NCBI GenBank assembly: GCA_030550585.1
Contig: JAUQPB010000003.1
Location: 36,333-100,332, forward strand
Source: Thermoproteota archaeon
Lineage (GTDB): Archaea > Thermoproteota > Thermoprotei_A > Sulfolobales > Ignisphaeraceae
Reading direction: 5' to 3'
Length of the DNA: 64,000 bases
The stretch's first letter is position 1; each line of letters starts with the position of its first letter. Positions 20,111 through 46,744 of this stretch are shown here, one piece after another. The notes beneath the pieces were generated by a model, which saw nothing but the letters and a program-made list of their open reading frames with translations, was not told the origin of the DNA and did not search any database. The translations under genes and the position numbers were made by a program.

Positions 20111-20785
20111 CTATTTAGGAATAAACTCTTTTTCCCATAGGGCTGTCATTCTAGATCTCTTGACCTGTCTCATAGCCTTGTCCACATATTTATATACTGT
20201 TGAGTGTTGCCTCCCCTCTATAAGCATTAAAATCGCTTCTCTGGCTATGTTAGCGCTTTCGTAGTCGCCTATTATGGCGACATAGTCGTCGTATACGGAT
20301 ATCTCTGTTCCAGTCATCTCCTCCAAGTTCTTTCTAGCCTTGCCCTCCTCGCCTATTATCCTCCCCTTAACTCTAGTCAAGTGATTTTCTGTAGGCTTCA
20401 CATACTGCTTCAAATCTATTACAACGAGTATCTGATCCTCGTTAAGAAGCTTAAACGCCCTCTCGGGCGAGAATCCATAGCCTATGGCGAGCACAGTGTC
20501 TCTGGCTTTCATAAGGTCTAGAACCTTTGTCTGCGGAGACTGGGGCTCTATCACAACAGTTCCATTGACCTCGTCAACGCTTATCCTAGTCCTCGTCTGC
20601 TCCATAAGCCTCTTCAAAACCTCGCCGTTTCTACCTATCAACACACCAATTCTCTCAAGCGGGATCCTCACATAGAGTCTTGTAACCCCCGGCATGAGAT
20701 AGCCTTGAACCACACCAATCTTTGGTTTGTTGCTGTCGCTACCTGTGCTATTCTTGTCCCCCGACTCCATGGCTTTCCATCCCAC
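20111..20785 (-). CDS. KH-domain rRNA processing protein (Dim2/Pno1-like)
   Basis: IGVLIGRNG, AIGYGFSPERA, RVKGRIIGEEG, GRQHSTVY; follows rio1. Confidence 0.92.
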   Translation of the reverse strand: MGWKAMESGDKNSTGSDSNKPKIGVVQGYLMPGVTRLYVRIPLERIGVLIGRNGEVLKRLMEQTRTRISVDEVNGTVVIEPQSPQTKVLDLMKARDTVLAIGYGFSPERAFKLLNEDQILVVIDLKQYVKPTENHLTRVKGRIIGEEGKARKNLEEMTGTEISVYDDYVAIIGDYESANIAREAILMLIEGRQHSTVYKYVDKAMRQVKRSRMTALWEKEFIPK

Positions 20786-20849
20786 AGACTGTAGATGGAT
20801 CTTAGCAATCAGCTGTTACTTGTGTTAACAGTTTAATAAGCTCCACTAT

Positions 20850-21686
20850 TCACTCCTCTAAGTACTTATCCAAATCATCGCACGTCTTATTGGATGTTAT
20901 ATAGTTGTATATCTTGTCTGGCGATGCCGCTTCTAAACCAAGCTCATCTCTGAAAAATCTCACAATGTTTATTACATCTCTGTAGAGAAACATGTGTGCA
21001 TTTGGATGCGATATTTCGACGGCTTGGCTAACATCAATTATATAAACACTGCCGTTATGAAGCATAACATTGTATTCGCTTAGATCGCCGTGGACAAGTC
21101 CTGCGAGCCAGTACATTCTATGGATGTTCCTTACAATCTCAGCAAAAATCTTTTTGGCTTCCCCATAGTCTATCTCTCCAAGTTCAACAGCCTCTTTGAG
21201 TAGGGGTGCCCTAACACCCTCTGCCCCTATAAACTCCATAACTAGAACATTTCTGTGTACACATAGCGGTTGTGGGACAGAAACTCCAGCTCTATACATC
21301 TTCACTAGATTTGAAAACTCTTTTCTAGCCCATATAGCCATGAGCTTGTGTGTCGGGAGAGATGTTATCCACTCAAATCTCTGGTCACCCTTTATATACT
21401 TCCATATACTCTTCTTGAACTCTGCAGAGGAGGTTAGATAGATCTTCACAGCCAAATCCCTACCATTCTTATCTTTTGCCCAGTAAACCCTAGCCTCTTT
21501 ACCCGATGATACAACCCCCTTAAGCTTGTCTATACAGCCCCGGCTCTTCAGCTCTAGAACTGCTAGAACTGTTGACCTGTCGAAAACCTCTTCAACTGTT
21601 TCGAATAGATCGCTGTCCTTTATCCTAGGCTCTCTAACCCTCTTGACTATCTCTCTATCAATCTCTTTCTCAATGTCTTTGCCCAT
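20850..21686 (-). CDS. rio1: RIO1 serine kinase/ATPase
   Basis: SSGKEARVY, AVKIY, WARKEFSNL, VHGDLSEYN, IIDVSQAV. Confidence 0.93.
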   Translation of the reverse strand: MGKDIEKEIDREIVKRVREPRIKDSDLFETVEEVFDRSTVLAVLELKSRGCIDKLKGVVSSGKEARVYWAKDKNGRDLAVKIYLTSSAEFKKSIWKYIKGDQRFEWITSLPTHKLMAIWARKEFSNLVKMYRAGVSVPQPLCVHRNVLVMEFIGAEGVRAPLLKEAVELGEIDYGEAKKIFAEIVRNIHRMYWLAGLVHGDLSEYNVMLHNGSVYIIDVSQAVEISHPNAHMFLYRDVINIVRFFRDELGLEAASPDKIYNYITSNKTCDDLDKYLEE

Positions 21687-21804
21687 AGAGCGCACCACCA
21701 TAGCTATGTATGTGGCGACAGAACGTTTTTGCCGTATAGAGAAGAGATTTCGCTAATATTGGGGCAGAGACTGTGTGCTCCGGTTTTTGGAGCAAAAACT
21801 TGTA

Positions 21805-22125
21805 TCAGACTACTCCCTCTATAAACTCTTTTGTTATTAAACCCATGTTGACTAGCTTCCTGACCTCATCCTTGCTATATTTGTATACAATATCCCCTTT
21901 GTCTTGCTGAAAGTCCCACGGCTGGACAAGCACCACATCGCCTCCAGCAAACCAAACCCTTCTCCTATATTTCCCAGGTATTCTACAAACCCGTGAAATA
22001 CCATCAACACATCTAACCTTTAGGAAGTCCGCCCCCACAAGCTCCTCAACAACACATAGAACCTGGCCTTCGGTAGGCAATGTAAGGTCTTTGGGAGCAC
22101 CCTCAACTTTTTTGTCTTTTGCTAT
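21805..22125 (-). CDS. eif1a: Translation initiation factor aIF-1A (probable AUA start at 22125)
   Basis: CRIPGKYRRRVW, GDVVLVQPWDFQ, KGDIVYKY. The frame extends 15 codons upstream of TTG 22080 to an ATA preceded by GGTGGTGA. Confidence 0.92.
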   Translation of the reverse strand: MAKDKKVEGAPKDLTLPTEGQVLCVVEELVGADFLKVRCVDGISRVCRIPGKYRRRVWFAGGDVVLVQPWDFQQDKGDIVYKYSKDEVRKLVNMGLITKEFIEGVV

Positions 22126-22189
22126 AGCTTCTCACCACCTTCTCAACCTATTTCTGGGATTCTCTAGAGCTTATAAATCTAAGCTCTTC

Positions 22190-23047
22190 TCACCTTCTAG
22201 CTCTGTACTTCGAGAAATTCTTTGCGATGTAGTCTATGTGTATAGTCTTCAAATCGCCTTCCCGGCTCTTCAGCTTGAGCCATAGACCATCGAATGATTC
22301 CACAGTATAGGGCCTTCCATCAACAACTATGTAGTCTCCAGGCTTGAAGTTTAGTATCCTGATTGATATGTAGAGCCTAGCTGTTTTCTCTCCACTAGAC
22401 AGTCTTTTAACATCTCCAAAAGTTTCAACAACTCTTACACCAGGCCATCTCCTCTGAGCTATTTCAGCTATCTTCTTTGCTATTCCAGCATCTACCAAGC
22501 TAATGTCATAGCCGTTTTTAACAGGTTTAATATCTTTGATGAATTTGCCAAACTCGTTGCTGATACTATCCACAAACTTCTCCACCTCATCATCCTCGTT
22601 AACATATCTTATCTGGACAACTGCCTTGTGCCCTCCTCCAACAATTCTCTTGCAGTTTGGACATAGGGTTGGGCGCCAGACCATCTTAACACCAATTCTA
22701 TGCTCTATCCTGGCATTGCCAAGCTTCCCAAACAGTGTTATAATAGCTGTGGAGTCTTCATATGGCTTGAAATCAGCTCTAACATCATCTAGCAGAAAGT
22801 CCTGGGATGGTCTAAGCACATCGATTATATAGTCCTCTACAATGTCTGCGAGCTCTGGGTAGCTTCTAACACTAATCCACTTGCCATGAATGCTAACTGC
22901 GCCACAGGAGCGGCAAAAACCAATCTCAATTCTATCTATTTTTTCGACCAGCCCCCTGACCTCTATATAGCACCTTGGGCAGAGGCCATTTATTATAGGG
23001 GTTGTTGGAGACTCTTCAACACCGCATTTAACACAAAATCTCTTCAA
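22190..23047 (-). CDS. nmd3: Nmd3 family large-subunit biogenesis protein
   Basis: Four CxxC pairs and KAVVQIR. Confidence 0.88.
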   Translation of the reverse strand: MKRFCVKCGVEESPTTPIINGLCPRCYIEVRGLVEKIDRIEIGFCRSCGAVSIHGKWISVRSYPELADIVEDYIIDVLRPSQDFLLDDVRADFKPYEDSTAIITLFGKLGNARIEHRIGVKMVWRPTLCPNCKRIVGGGHKAVVQIRYVNEDDEVEKFVDSISNEFGKFIKDIKPVKNGYDISLVDAGIAKKIAEIAQRRWPGVRVVETFGDVKRLSSGEKTARLYISIRILNFKPGDYIVVDGRPYTVESFDGLWLKLKSREGDLKTIHIDYIAKNFSKYRARR

Positions 23048-23355
23048 GTCTCCAGAACCTCTCTAACTATCTGTATATGCAGCTGATCGCCTACTCTCAA
23101 CGCATATTCTTTAATCACAGCACCTCTTCTATCAAGTTCTTCAACTATTCTCTTACCAGATAAAACAACTATATCCGCATCCATGATCTCGTTAATAACC
23201 TCCTCTAGATCTGCCTTCTTACCGCCATAGAACTTAGGCGAAATGTCTAGAACCACATCACCTTCTCTAAACACCATGCCAAGAATCTCCTCATCACAAA
23301 CAGCAACAATCTTTTTCCTGCCTACGCTATGGATCTTCATAAAGTATAGACTCAT
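23044..23355 (-). CDS. DUF424 family protein
   Basis: IVAVCDEEILG, FYGG; conserved position next to aIF-2beta. Confidence 0.85.
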   Translation of the reverse strand: MSLYFMKIHSVGRKKIVAVCDEEILGMVFREGDVVLDISPKFYGGKKADLEEVINEIMDADIVVLSGKRIVEELDRRGAVIKEYALRVGDQLHIQIVREVLET

Positions 23356-23367
23356 GTTTAGAGCCCT

Positions 23368-23802
23368 CTAGACAGGCTTAACATAGGTTATAGCTCCACA
23401 TGCAAGACATCTGATAAACCATACCTTACCCTCTCTAACAAGCTCAGTATCGTAACTACCACATGTTGAGCACCTAACATAGCTCTCCAAAAACCTTGTG
23501 TAGAGACTCTGAATAGACTTTGCAGAAACCCTCTTATATATAATCAAACTATTGTCGGGGTTGAGAGACCCCGGCATAGCAAGCTCCTTCAGCAAAAACC
23601 TCATAACAATCCTAGGCTCTCTCCTAATCCTCTCACAAACAAAACCAAAATTCTTAACGACAGTGTGATCCCCAACATAGTCTATCTCAAGTGTTGGAAT
23701 ATCGTATGCTCTACCGCTAACCCTTTTGGGAAGACTTCTATAAACTCTATCTAACAAAGCCTCATAGTCATACAAAATCTTTATCTCAACATCATCCTGC
23801 AT
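23368..23802 (-). CDS. eif2b: Translation initiation factor aIF-2 beta subunit
   Basis: YEALLDR, TVVKNF, FLLKELA, and the YVRCSTCGSYDT...CLACGA zinc ribbon. Confidence 0.93.
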   Translation of the reverse strand: MQDDVEIKILYDYEALLDRVYRSLPKRVSGRAYDIPTLEIDYVGDHTVVKNFGFVCERIRREPRIVMRFLLKELAMPGSLNPDNSLIIYKRVSAKSIQSLYTRFLESYVRCSTCGSYDTELVREGKVWFIRCLACGAITYVKPV

Positions 23803-45943: not shown

Positions 45944-46744
45944 TTATTTCTGTTGACTGGGATTTGCGTTAGGGGTTGCCACGTTTTTGCGTATCATTTC
46001 AAGTAGTTTTTCTTGTAGTGTGATAAACTTCTTTATTCTGATTGGTTTGATAAGTTTGTTTAGGTCTTCTAGGCTTAGCATGCGTTCTTCGCCAGAGACG
46101 TCTATAACTACTTCTACAGAGGCTTTGCCAACGCCTCCATGGTATATCAGCTGTCCCTGGTCTATTATTGTTACTGTCGATGGTTCGAGGTTGTAGAGCT
46201 GGTGTGAGGTTACAATTACTATTCTATCTCTTAACTGTGTTAGTATCTTCTCGAGGGGCTCAATCATAAGGATATCCAAGTTTGCAAAAGGCTCGTCGAG
46301 AAGAACTATCTTAGCATCTTTGCCTAGTGCTATAGCCAACTGCACCCTCTTTCTATAGCCTGCTGATAGTTCAAGATACTTTTTGTGGAGATAGCCCTCA
46401 AGCCCTAGCTCAAGGCTCATCTCCCTCGCTTTCTCATCACCAAGAAAATCTGCGAGTATATCCCCAACCCTCATATTCGGCAAAACAACATCTTCACCAA
46501 CATAGCCCATAAGCTTAACAATAGAGACTGTTGAAATCTTCTCACCTTTTTCTGTAACCGTGTAGATCTCCCCTCGATCAGGCCTTATGAACCCAGCTAT
46601 AGATTTGAGCAACGTACTTTTGCCACTACCGTTAGGCCCTAGAATCAGGTTGACACCCTTTCTGAATACAAGTCTCGGAATTTTCAAGGTGAAGTACTTG
46701 TACCTCTTCTCCAGACCTTCGACAACCACCTGCTCTATCTCCAT
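45944..46744 (-). CDS. ABC exporter ATP-binding protein
   Basis: GPNGSGKST, LSAGY signature, LLDEP, TSH. Confidence 0.88.
   Translation of the reverse strand: MEIEQVVVEGLEKRYKYFTLKIPRLVFRKGVNLILGPNGSGKSTLLKSIAGFIRPDRGEIYTVTEKGEKISTVSIVKLMGYVGEDVVLPNMRVGDILADFLGDEKAREMSLELGLEGYLHKKYLELSAGYRKRVQLAIALGKDAKIVLLDEPFANLDILMIEPLEKILTQLRDRIVIVTSHQLYNLEPSTVTIIDQGQLIYHGGVGKASVEVVIDVSGEERMLSLEDLNKLIKPIRIKKFITLQEKLLEMIRKNVATPNANPSQQK

What the first reader, a model, noticed from the sequence alone, without database searches (positions are those of the whole stretch)
22078..22139. aIF-1A appears to start at a non-canonical AUA codon
Seen: upstream of the called TTG (22080) the frame reads ATA-GCA-AAA-GAC-AAA-AAA-GTT-GAG..., giving (M)AKDKKVEGAPKDLTLPTEGQ. 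There is no ATG/GTG/TTG before an in-frame TGA. A strong SD, GGTGGTGA, ends 6 nt before the ATA (22125). Established: a/eIF1A has a basic N-terminal tail and affects start-codon fidelity; bacterial infC is autoregulated by an AUU start and eIF1 by poor AUG context. Inference: an analogous feedback loop in archaea.
Basis: partly seen in the sequence, partly recalled or inferred. Interest (0 to 1): 0.72.

Follow-up and report, generated by a model that had tools for sequence, protein, structure and literature searches.

The report
Archaeal initiation-factor gene starting at AUA
The gene for translation initiation factor aIF1A in this Ignisphaera-like archaeon seems to begin at the unusual start codon AUA, a trait shared by its relatives, much as some bacteria start their initiation factor IF3 at a weak codon.

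Summary
On the minus strand an in-frame TGA (22134-22132) is followed by GAA GCT ATA (22125-22123). No ATG, GTG or TTG occurs before TTG 22080. GGTGGTGA (22139-22132) ends 6 nt before the ATA.

[quoted passage not shown] They match the NCBIfam aIF-1A profile and Pyrococcus abyssi aIF1A almost from residue 1.

It is not a sequencing error. Two independent genome assemblies (L001, L002) carry GGGTGA, 5-6 nt, then ATA GCN AAG AAG at the same place, and L002 also has the in-frame TGA.

In a tree of 120 aIF1A representatives, one 33-row clade (SH-aLRT 95) that includes the Ignisphaera-named entries holds every anomalous call. It has 14 rows with Ile at the Met position, 13 truncated rows and 6 direct-M rows. 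The other 87 rows have none.

Best reading: a real, clade-conserved AUA start led by a Shine-Dalgarno (SD) site, probably a weak start that makes aIF1A output sensitive to start-codon stringency. The proposed feedback loop is untested. Published in-vitro work names aIF1, not aIF1A, as the factor that rejects AUU. Eight literature searches found no description of this start.

The parts
22171..22177 (-). TTTATAA, a TATA-box-like element in the 64-nt gap after the NMD3-family gene. It is a possible own promoter for aIF1A (inferred).
   Evidence: Read directly. A/T-rich boxes lie at a similar distance in L001 and L002. No transcript data, so the transcription start is not known.
22132..22139 (-). 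Shine-Dalgarno-like GGTGGTGA, ending 6 nt before the ATA.
   Evidence: the GGTGAG block is invariant in window, L001 and L002. The same GGTGGTGA precedes the ATG at 46744, and GGTG(A) lies 4-7 nt before several other starts in the window.
22132..22134 (-). In-frame TGA, part of the SD, which closes the frame two codons upstream of the ATA.
   Evidence: L002 has the same arrangement (TGA GCA GAC ATA). In L001 the spacer is 1 nt shorter, so the GTG of the SD falls in frame.
22123..22125 (-). ATA, the proposed start codon (AUA), aligned with the Met, Leu or Val start of other archaeal aIF1A genes.
22081..22122 (-). [quoted passage not shown]
   Evidence: NCBIfam NF003082 matches from residue 3 at profile position 4. 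P. abyssi aIF1A (5jb3 chain 6) aligns from its residue 4. P0002 is 81% identical over 100% of the query, with tail MAKDKKVESTPRDLTLPTQGQ. Indels against L001 and L002 are all multiples of 3.
22078..22080 (-). TTG, the first canonical start (the mechanical ORF call). More likely the internal Leu16.
   Evidence: No GGTG lies in the bases upstream of it. The equivalent codon is CTC in L002. Truncated calls in relatives begin at different positions.
21805..22125 (-). Full aIF1A coding sequence as proposed: 106 codons plus stop.
   Evidence: Pfam eIF-1a, E 1e-21, residues 20-82. NCBIfam aIF-1A equivalog, 138.9 bits against a cut-off of 108.

Best explanation
The aIF1A gene (21805-22125, minus strand) starts at the AUA codon at 22125-22123, not at TTG 22080.

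Shown: the codon is there, the frame is closed two codons upstream, and the following 15 codons are homologous to the N-terminal basic tail of aIF1A. An SD-like GGTGGTGA lies 6 nt upstream. The same layout (GGGTGA, 5-6 nt, ATA GCN AAG AAG) is present in two other assemblies. A whole Ignisphaera-related clade shows gene calls that are explained by an Ile codon at the Met position.

Inferred: the SD places the 30S subunit so that initiator Met-tRNA (anticodon CAU) pairs with AUA, mismatched at the third base, and the protein begins with Met. AUA is a weak start, so aIF1A output is attenuated. Output then depends on how strictly the initiation complex rejects near-cognate codons. In archaea that strictness is attributed to aIF1, which would couple aIF1A synthesis inversely to aIF1 activity. 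The logic resembles bacterial infC with its AUU or AUA start. Long retention of a codon that is one transition away from ATG suggests the weak start is selected for.
For: (1) Sequence.

(2) Tail homology. NF003082 aIF-1A equivalog, 138.9 bits (cut-off 108), matches protein residues 3-103 to profile positions 4-104. P. abyssi aIF1A in ribosome complexes (5jb3 and others) aligns query residues 3-104 to its residues 4-107. Outgroup aIF1As begin M, L or V followed by [APG]-K-K-K at the aligned column.

(3) Independent DNA. L001 reads GGGTGAgcgacATAgcgaagaag and L002 reads GGGTGAgcagacATAgccaagaag. The next codon, Ala, has a different third base in each of the three sequences (GCA, GCG, GCC), so these are not copies of one another.

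(4) Clade pattern. Of 120 rows in the tree, a 33-row clade (SH-aLRT 95) holds 14 of 14 Ile rows and 13 of 13 truncated rows. The other 87 rows hold 0. In the 14 Ile rows the column is I in 14 of 14. The residue just before it takes 9 different values. After it come A/S/P, then K in 13 of 14.

(5) Source pattern of the direct-M rows. Four of the 6 (P0002, P0003, P0176, P0177) come only from NCBI and derived sets, and each groups with Ile or truncated rows. P0003 is nearly identical to P0010 and P0011 over their shared region, yet other pipelines called those two from an internal Val codon.

(6) The truncated calls start at different places, and some cut into the OB-fold domain (MVCVVEE, MIGADY). 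No conserved canonical internal start exists.

(7) ATA is an ordinary Ile codon in elongation here. The invariant Ile49 of the RIPG motif is encoded by ATA at 21981-21979. This rules out an ATA=Met code.

(8) SD use. GGTG lies upstream of the first start in about a quarter of the large ORFs, with spacings of 4-7 nt.

(9) Literature passages. aIF1 rejects AUU in S. solfataricus (PMC4705826; PMC6237735). In Staphylococcus aureus, infC starts at AUA, an extended SD is predicted at each of three non-canonical sites, and AUA or AUU reporters gave about 10% of AUG (up to 30% for one AUA reporter in rich medium) (PMC13009471).
Against: No protein N-terminus, ribosome profiling or transcript start is available, so use of AUA is inferred from comparative sequence only.

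DNA was read for only 3 clade members (window, L001, L002). For the other rows the Ile codon could be ATT or ATC.

ATA makes up 55-68% of Ile codons in these sequences. Seeing ATA rather than another Ile codon three times has a chance of about 0.2, so it is not significant by itself.

The motif GGTGA-N4-8-ATA is not enriched in the window.

Two clade rows from non-NCBI pipelines (P0189 from JGI, P0181 from NCBI and Logan) start directly with MGKK or MAKK. They probably have a canonical ATG, so the trait is not universal in the clade.

The 4 NCBI-only M rows could in principle be ATG. That NCBI's pipeline may call ATA as a start is my recollection, not a tool result.

L001 has an in-frame GTG three codons upstream, inside the SD.

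The rows are 90%-identity cluster representatives, many from metagenomes, and are not independent species. The tree rests on 75 columns.

The regulatory role is pure inference.
Confidence: 0.75

Rival explanations
1. AUA is the true start but has no regulatory meaning. A start-codon mutation became fixed in the ancestor of the clade and is tolerated because a good SD and promoter give enough aIF1A.
For: Nothing in the sequence shows regulation. There is no structured leader (z-scores -0.65, -0.33 and +1.2), and Rfam gave no hit above its cut-off. A probable reversion to ATG in the P0181/P0189 sub-lineage shows the codon is not indispensable.
Against: ATA to ATG is a single transition. Yet Ile or truncated calls persist across a clade whose members are only 58-81% identical to the window protein. 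This fits selection better than drift. Bacterial precedents for weak starts on initiation-factor genes are regulatory.
Confidence: 0.3
2. One reading: aIF1A itself controls recognition of its own AUA start, as direct negative autoregulation like IF3 on infC.
For: The codon class (AUH) and the strong SD parallel infC. The eukaryotic eIF1A N-tail favours the codon-anticodon interaction (PMC6412873 passage), so the factor does act at the site where the mismatch is sensed.
Against: The passages read assign rejection of AUU and non-canonical codons to aIF1. The review passage calls the role of the archaeal aIF1A tail an open question. If the tail stabilises pairing, more aIF1A would raise AUA use, which is positive rather than negative feedback (my inference).
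Confidence: 0.15
3. Translation starts at TTG 22080, or at another internal canonical codon, and the upstream 45 nt are untranslated leader.
For: It is the first canonical start. Several pipelines made such calls in relatives. The Pfam domain (residues 20-82) would still be complete.
Against: No SD precedes the TTG. The codon is CTC in L002. The internal starts of relatives are at inconsistent positions, and some fall inside the OB fold. The upstream 15 codons stay open, their indels are multiples of 3, and they match the family profile and P. abyssi aIF1A. A sharp conservation boundary lies at the Ile column.
Confidence: 0.07
4. Sequencing or assembly error: the true codon is ATG.
For: It would take a single base difference at 22123.
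Against: ATA is at the same position in two other independent assemblies with diverged flanks. Ile is in 14 of 14 extended calls.
Confidence: 0.02
5. Another route into the frame: the GTG inside the SD with a frameshift, readthrough of the TGA, or reinitiation after the 4-codon mini-ORF TTG 22146 to TGA 22134.
For: A GTG (22135-22133) overlaps the SD. A TTG-AGA-AGG-TGG-TGA mini-ORF ends just upstream.
Against: The GTG is out of frame in the window and in L002 and in frame only in L001. It has no SD of its own. The mini-ORF is absent from L001 and L002. No start lies upstream in frame other than that TTG.
Confidence: 0.02

Closest known systems
Bacterial infC (IF3) with a non-canonical AUU start (E. 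coli) or AUA start (S. aureus)
   Same: A gene for a core initiation factor begins with an AUH codon that is conserved among relatives and preceded by a good or extended SD. Weak starts of this class gave about 10% of AUG in S. aureus reporters, up to 30% for one AUA reporter in rich medium (PMC13009471 passages). The AUU of infC is needed for autocontrol (Butler 1987, seen only as a reference entry in PMC4705826).
   Different: A different domain of life and a non-homologous factor. aIF1A is the homologue of bacterial IF1, not IF3. IF3 is itself the fidelity factor, whereas in archaea that role is ascribed to aIF1. No experiment exists for the archaeal case.
Eukaryotic eIF1 autoregulation through a poor AUG context
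   Same: The level of an initiation factor is tied to start-site stringency (PMC6237735 discussion passage).
   Different: There the codon is AUG in a poor context, and the regulated factor is the stringency factor. Here the codon is non-AUG in a good SD context, and the factor is aIF1A.
Ordinary archaeal aIF1A genes (P. abyssi, Sulfolobus, Pyrodictium, Hyperthermus, Desulfurococcales)
   Same: The same protein family, the same basic tail (M-[APG]-K-K-K...) and the same OB fold.
   Different: In the 87 rows outside the clade, none shows Ile at the start column or a truncated call. Their first residue is M, L or V, consistent with ATG, TTG or GTG starts.

Membership tests
aIF1A / eIF1A protein family | eIF-1a OB-fold domain (Pfam PF01176) above the gathering score | tested here: met
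   76.8 bits against 30.2, residues 20-82.
aIF1A / eIF1A protein family | NCBIfam aIF-1A equivalog model above its curated cut-off | tested here: met
   NF003082, 138.9 bits against 108, residues 3-103. TIGR00523 scored 101.2 against 102.9, just below its cut-off.
aIF1A / eIF1A protein family | Short basic N-terminal tail ahead of the OB fold | tested here: met
   AKDKKVEGAPK is present only if translation starts at the ATA. It aligns to the P. abyssi aIF1A N-terminus. The tail is described in a PMC6412873 passage.
infC-type control (initiation-factor gene with a weak AUH start under stringency control) | Non-canonical AUH start codon conserved among relatives | tested here: met
   ATA in 3 of 3 DNA sequences. 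Ile in 14 of 14 extended calls. A probable exception is the P0181/P0189 sub-lineage.
infC-type control (initiation-factor gene with a weak AUH start under stringency control) | The encoded factor itself discriminates against that codon class | not testable with these tools
   The passages read attribute discrimination to aIF1, not aIF1A.
infC-type control (initiation-factor gene with a weak AUH start under stringency control) | Changing the codon to AUG raises expression and abolishes control | not testable with these tools
   Needs reporters or toeprinting.
eIF1-type control (AUG in poor context) | Start codon is AUG with a suboptimal context | tested here: not met
   The codon is ATA, and the context is a good SD at 6 nt.
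SD-led archaeal initiation site | GGTG(A)-type motif 4-8 nt upstream of the start, as at other genes of the same genome | tested here: met
   GGTGGTGA with a 6-nt spacer. The same motif and similar spacings occur at other starts in the window. The 16S rRNA 3' end is not in the window, so complementarity was not checked directly.

The most novel reading that the evidence does not exclude
An entire archaeal lineage (Ignisphaera and relatives) has kept an AUA start on aIF1A as a translational sensor. aIF1A synthesis is set by the stringency of start-codon selection, through aIF1 or aIF1A itself. This would be an archaeal counterpart of the infC and eIF1 feedback loops that evolved independently, acting on the universal IF1/aIF1A/eIF1A factor. 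It would also be, to my knowledge, the first natural AUA-initiated archaeal gene with a defined function for the codon.
Probability: 0.25. Interest if true: 0.8.

Novelty: new variant of a known kind. Interest (0 to 1): 0.6.

Why it matters
Weak non-AUG starts on initiation-factor genes are the textbook way that bacteria (infC) and eukaryotes (eIF1, through context) keep start-codon fidelity in balance. No equivalent has been described in Archaea in the library I could search. A conserved AUA start on aIF1A would give a natural substrate for testing how the archaeal initiation complex (aIF1, aIF1A, aIF2) handles near-cognate codons when an SD is present.

There is also a practical consequence. 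Gene callers limited to ATG, GTG and TTG mis-annotate this essential gene in this clade. Of 33 cluster representatives, 13 are truncated and 14 carry spurious N-terminal extensions.

Tried and rejected
1. Motif enrichment. GGTGA-N4-8-ATA occurs 9 times against 11.3 expected, so it is not evidence by itself.

2. Which Ile codon. ATA is 55-68% of Ile codons, so three ATAs are not significant as a codon choice.

3. Structured leader or known RNA. Rfam at gathering scores found only 2 tRNAs in the window. The permissive scan of 21950-22300 gave one sub-threshold match to a mammalian lncRNA model (19 bits against 60). Folding 81 nt around the start in the three loci gave z-scores of -0.65, -0.33 and +1.2. 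I rejected a structured leader.

4. ATA=Met recoding. Rejected because the invariant Ile49 is encoded by ATA.

5. Mini-ORF reinitiation and the GTG inside the SD. Neither is conserved.

6. Other non-canonical starts in the window. The scan listed 14 near-cognate-plus-SD sites upstream of first canonical starts. Apart from aIF1A, they lie 1-8 codons from a canonical start that uses the same SD, or in shadow ORFs opposite larger genes, or have only a weak AGG with AGGT. I found no second credible case.

I could not see how different pipelines called the same gene within a cluster.

8. More DNA. The single genome-contig scan returned 3 loci. The start codon of P0002 (Ignisphaera sp. 4213-co) and of the other clade members therefore stayed unchecked.

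9. Papers. Hasenohrl 2009 is not held and is cited only through passages in other papers. Eight full-text searches found no paper describing a non-AUG start of an aIF1A gene or an AUA start in Ignisphaera. Subscription journals are mostly not covered.

Full report
**What is in the sequence**

On the minus strand the frame of the eIF-1a-domain ORF reads TGA (22134-22132), GAA, GCT, ATA (22125-22123), GCA AAA GAC AAA AAA GTT GAG GGT GCT CCC AAA GAC CTT ACA, TTG (22080-22078), CCT ACC GAA GGC CAG. The mechanical ORF list starts the gene at TTG 22080 and gives 91 aa. Between the in-frame TGA and that TTG there is no ATG, GTG or TTG, and ATA is the only codon one base away from ATG. GGTGGTGA lies at 22139-22132, so 6 nt separate it from the ATA. 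A TTTATAA box lies at 22177-22171, in the 64-nt gap after the upstream NMD3-family gene.

**Identity and context**

Translated from the ATA, the 106-residue product (P0001) matches two family models.
- Pfam eIF-1a: E 1e-21, residues 20-82.
- NCBIfam aIF-1A equivalog NF003082: 138.9 bits against a cut-off of 108, aligned from protein residue 3 to profile position 4.

P. abyssi aIF1A, the protein seen in archaeal 30S initiation complexes (5jb3, 6sw9 and others), aligns from its residue 4 (KERKVEG) to residue 3 here (KDKKVEG). The 15 codons upstream of the TTG are therefore the normal basic N-terminal tail, and the ATA sits within one residue of where the family's Met lies.

The neighbours on the same strand, with their Pfam matches, are:
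- IF2B/IF5-domain protein (aIF2-beta-like), 23368-23802
- DUF424, 23044-23355
- NMD3 family, 22190-23047
- aIF1A
- RIO1 kinase, 20850-21701
- KH-domain, Pno1-like protein, 20111-20785

L001 and L002 carry ORFs of the same sizes in the same order. I judged this by size and order only and did not scan those ORFs against Pfam.

**Is it more than chance?**

The bare motif GGTGA-N4-8-ATA is not enriched: 9 observed against 11.3 expected. The other 8 matches lie inside or antisense to large ORFs. A broader scan looked for near-cognate codons with an SD upstream of the first canonical start. It gave 14 sites and no second credible case. The organism does use this SD. GGTG lies upstream of the first start in about a quarter of the 52 large ORFs, at spacings of 4-7 nt, and an identical GGTGGTGA precedes the ATG at 46744.

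**Relatives: DNA**

- L001 (a Thermoprotei MAG; 67% identity in the best tblastn segment) reads ...taaGGGTGAgcgacATAgcgaagaagaaaagg.
- L002 (another Thermoprotei MAG; 74% identity in the best segment) reads ...taaGGGTGAgcagacATAgccaagaagaagagg.
- L003 is a bathyarchaeote outgroup with a probable TTG start.

In the alignment the block GGTGAG...ATAGC.AA is invariant. The third base of the following Ala codon differs in all three sequences (GCA, GCG, GCC). All indels in the tail are multiples of three. L002, like the window, has the TGA of the SD in frame two codons before the ATA, so it has no canonical alternative. In L001 the spacer is one base shorter, so the GTG inside the SD falls in frame; that explains the call VSDIAKKK (P0009). 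A sequencing error in the window is therefore excluded.

One caveat applies. ATA is the majority Ile codon in these sequences (55-68%). Three ATAs rather than ATT or ATC is not significant by itself (chance about 0.2).

**Relatives: proteins**

I ran a profile search with the clade alignment (205 hits at E <= 1e-25, the best 120 listed). I then read the N-termini and built a tree on a 75-residue core window that excludes the tail.

The tree set held the 120 listed proteins, the window protein and the L002 translation, 122 in all. Two rows, P0223 and P0263, were dropped because my motif anchor failed on them. That left 120 rows. I assigned the N-terminal classes by hand.

One clade of 33 rows (SH-aLRT 95) includes every entry that a source names Ignisphaera. 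Its composition is:

| Class | Rows | Examples |
|---|---|---|
| Ile at the Met column, after a short variable extension (Ile is the first or third translated residue in the window and L002 rows) | 14 of 14 | MRS-IAKKK, VSD-IAKKK, MGES-IAKKK, RWEP-ISKK, RWDI-IPDKK |
| Truncated call | 13 of 13 | MLPAQGQ, VPTGNQ, MVCVVEE, MIGADY |
| Direct M | 6 | P0002, P0003, P0176, P0177, P0181, P0189 |

The 87 rows outside the clade have no Ile rows and no truncated rows. I classed them by their first residue: 78 M, 8 L and 1 V. Most are followed directly by [APG]-[KR]-K-K. A few carry a short extension ahead of a probable Met or Leu start (for example MRAMPKKK and MIS-LPKKKK). Their sources name Desulfurococcales, Pyrodictiaceae, Hyperthermus, Sulfolobus and others.

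In the 14 Ile rows the column is I in 14 of 14. The preceding residue takes 9 different values. The following columns are A/S/P and then K in 13 of 14. This is a sharp boundary of conservation exactly at the Ile. Residues at positions -3 and -2 are often G-E or W-E. These back-translate to GGNGAR or TGGGAR, which fits an SD at the same distance. That last point is my inference, not a result read from DNA.

Four of the 6 direct-M rows (P0002, P0003, P0176, P0177) are listed only from NCBI and sets derived from it. Each groups with Ile or truncated rows. P0003 is nearly identical to P0010 and P0011 over their shared region, yet other pipelines began those two at an internal Val codon. I recall, without a tool result, that NCBI's pipeline can accept the rarer table-11 starts when a family model supports them. 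That would explain these M's.

The other two direct-M rows, P0189 (JGI) and P0181 (NCBI and Logan), form their own pair (SH-aLRT 99). They probably carry a real ATG. This counts against the trait being universal in the clade.

**Rejected alternatives**

- ATA is not recoded to Met. The invariant Ile49 of the RIPG motif is encoded by ATA at 21981-21979.
- There is no structured leader and no known RNA family at this site.
- The GTG inside the SD and a 4-codon TTG mini-ORF are not conserved.
- The internal TTG has no SD, is CTC in L002, and corresponds to no fixed start in relatives.

**Mechanism**

Shown: an SD-led site whose start position holds ATA, conserved across diverged relatives, followed by a conserved coding tail.

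Inferred: initiator Met-tRNA reads AUA with a third-base mismatch, so initiation is inefficient. As a guide, S. aureus AUA and AUU reporters gave about 10% of the AUG value, up to 30% for one AUA reporter in rich medium. Each of three non-canonical sites there, including the AUA of infC, is predicted to have an extended SD (PMC13009471 passages).

In S. solfataricus extracts aIF1 discriminates against AUU and other non-canonical codons (passages in PMC4705826, and PMC6237735; the primary paper is not held). The most economical model is therefore that aIF1A output falls when aIF1-driven stringency rises. That would balance the two small factors that bind the 30S subunit together.

A review states that the role of the archaeal aIF1A tail at the codon-anticodon duplex is still open (PMC6412873 passage). 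If the tail stabilises pairing as in eukaryotes, the feedback would be positive rather than negative. A purely neutral, compensated mutation also remains a serious rival.

**Comparison and novelty**

The closest known system is bacterial infC, with AUU in E. coli and AUA in S. aureus. It shares the logic and the codon class. It differs in domain of life and in the factor involved, since aIF1A is the IF1 homologue. It also differs because IF3 is itself the fidelity factor.

The eIF1 poor-context loop fails its defining feature here, because the start is not an AUG in a weak context.

Eight full-text searches found no description of a non-AUG start for an aIF1A gene or of AUA starts in Ignisphaera. 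The library lacks most subscription journals. NCBI protein records in the clade may already embody the call silently.

I rate it a new variant of a known kind, with moderate to high interest. The start itself is well supported by comparison. Its regulatory meaning is open and directly testable.

**What stayed unchecked**

- The start-codon DNA of all clade members other than the window, L001 and L002.
- The 16S rRNA 3' end of this organism.
- Transcript starts.
- Any protein-level evidence.

Noticed in passing
window 21686-21701 (-): The RIO1 kinase ORF has two ATGs five codons apart. The first (21701) has no SD. The second (about 21686) is preceded by GGTGGTG with a 6-nt spacer, so the true start is probably the second ATG.
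   Followed up: partly
window 20111-23802 (-); L001 and L002 whole: A conserved same-strand cluster of translation and ribosome-biogenesis genes: IF2B/IF5-domain protein (aIF2-beta-like), DUF424, NMD3 family, aIF1A, RIO1 kinase, KH/Pno1-like protein. ORFs of the same sizes and order recur in L001 and L002. I judged that by size and order only and did not scan those ORFs against Pfam.
   Followed up: partly
window 22134-22146 (-): A four-codon mini-ORF (TTG AGA AGG TGG TGA) overlaps the SD and ends two codons before the ATA. It is absent from L001 and L002, so it is probably fortuitous.
   Followed up: yes
L003 1408-1764 (+): The bathyarchaeote aIF1A ORF runs from TTG 1408 with an odd N-terminus (MSSFFCWGSY...). 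A second in-frame TTG at 1438 gives (M)GKRKV..., like the N-terminus MGKRKV... of P0029. The start is probably over-extended in a mechanical call.
   Followed up: partly
protein P0021: A 459-residue representative has three separate stretches matching aIF1A (37% identity). It could be a triple eIF-1a-domain fusion or a mis-joined gene model.
   Followed up: no
window 22091-22285 (+): A 64-aa TTG ORF lies antisense to the aIF1A start region and the end of the NMD3 gene. It looks like a shadow ORF with no support.
   Followed up: no
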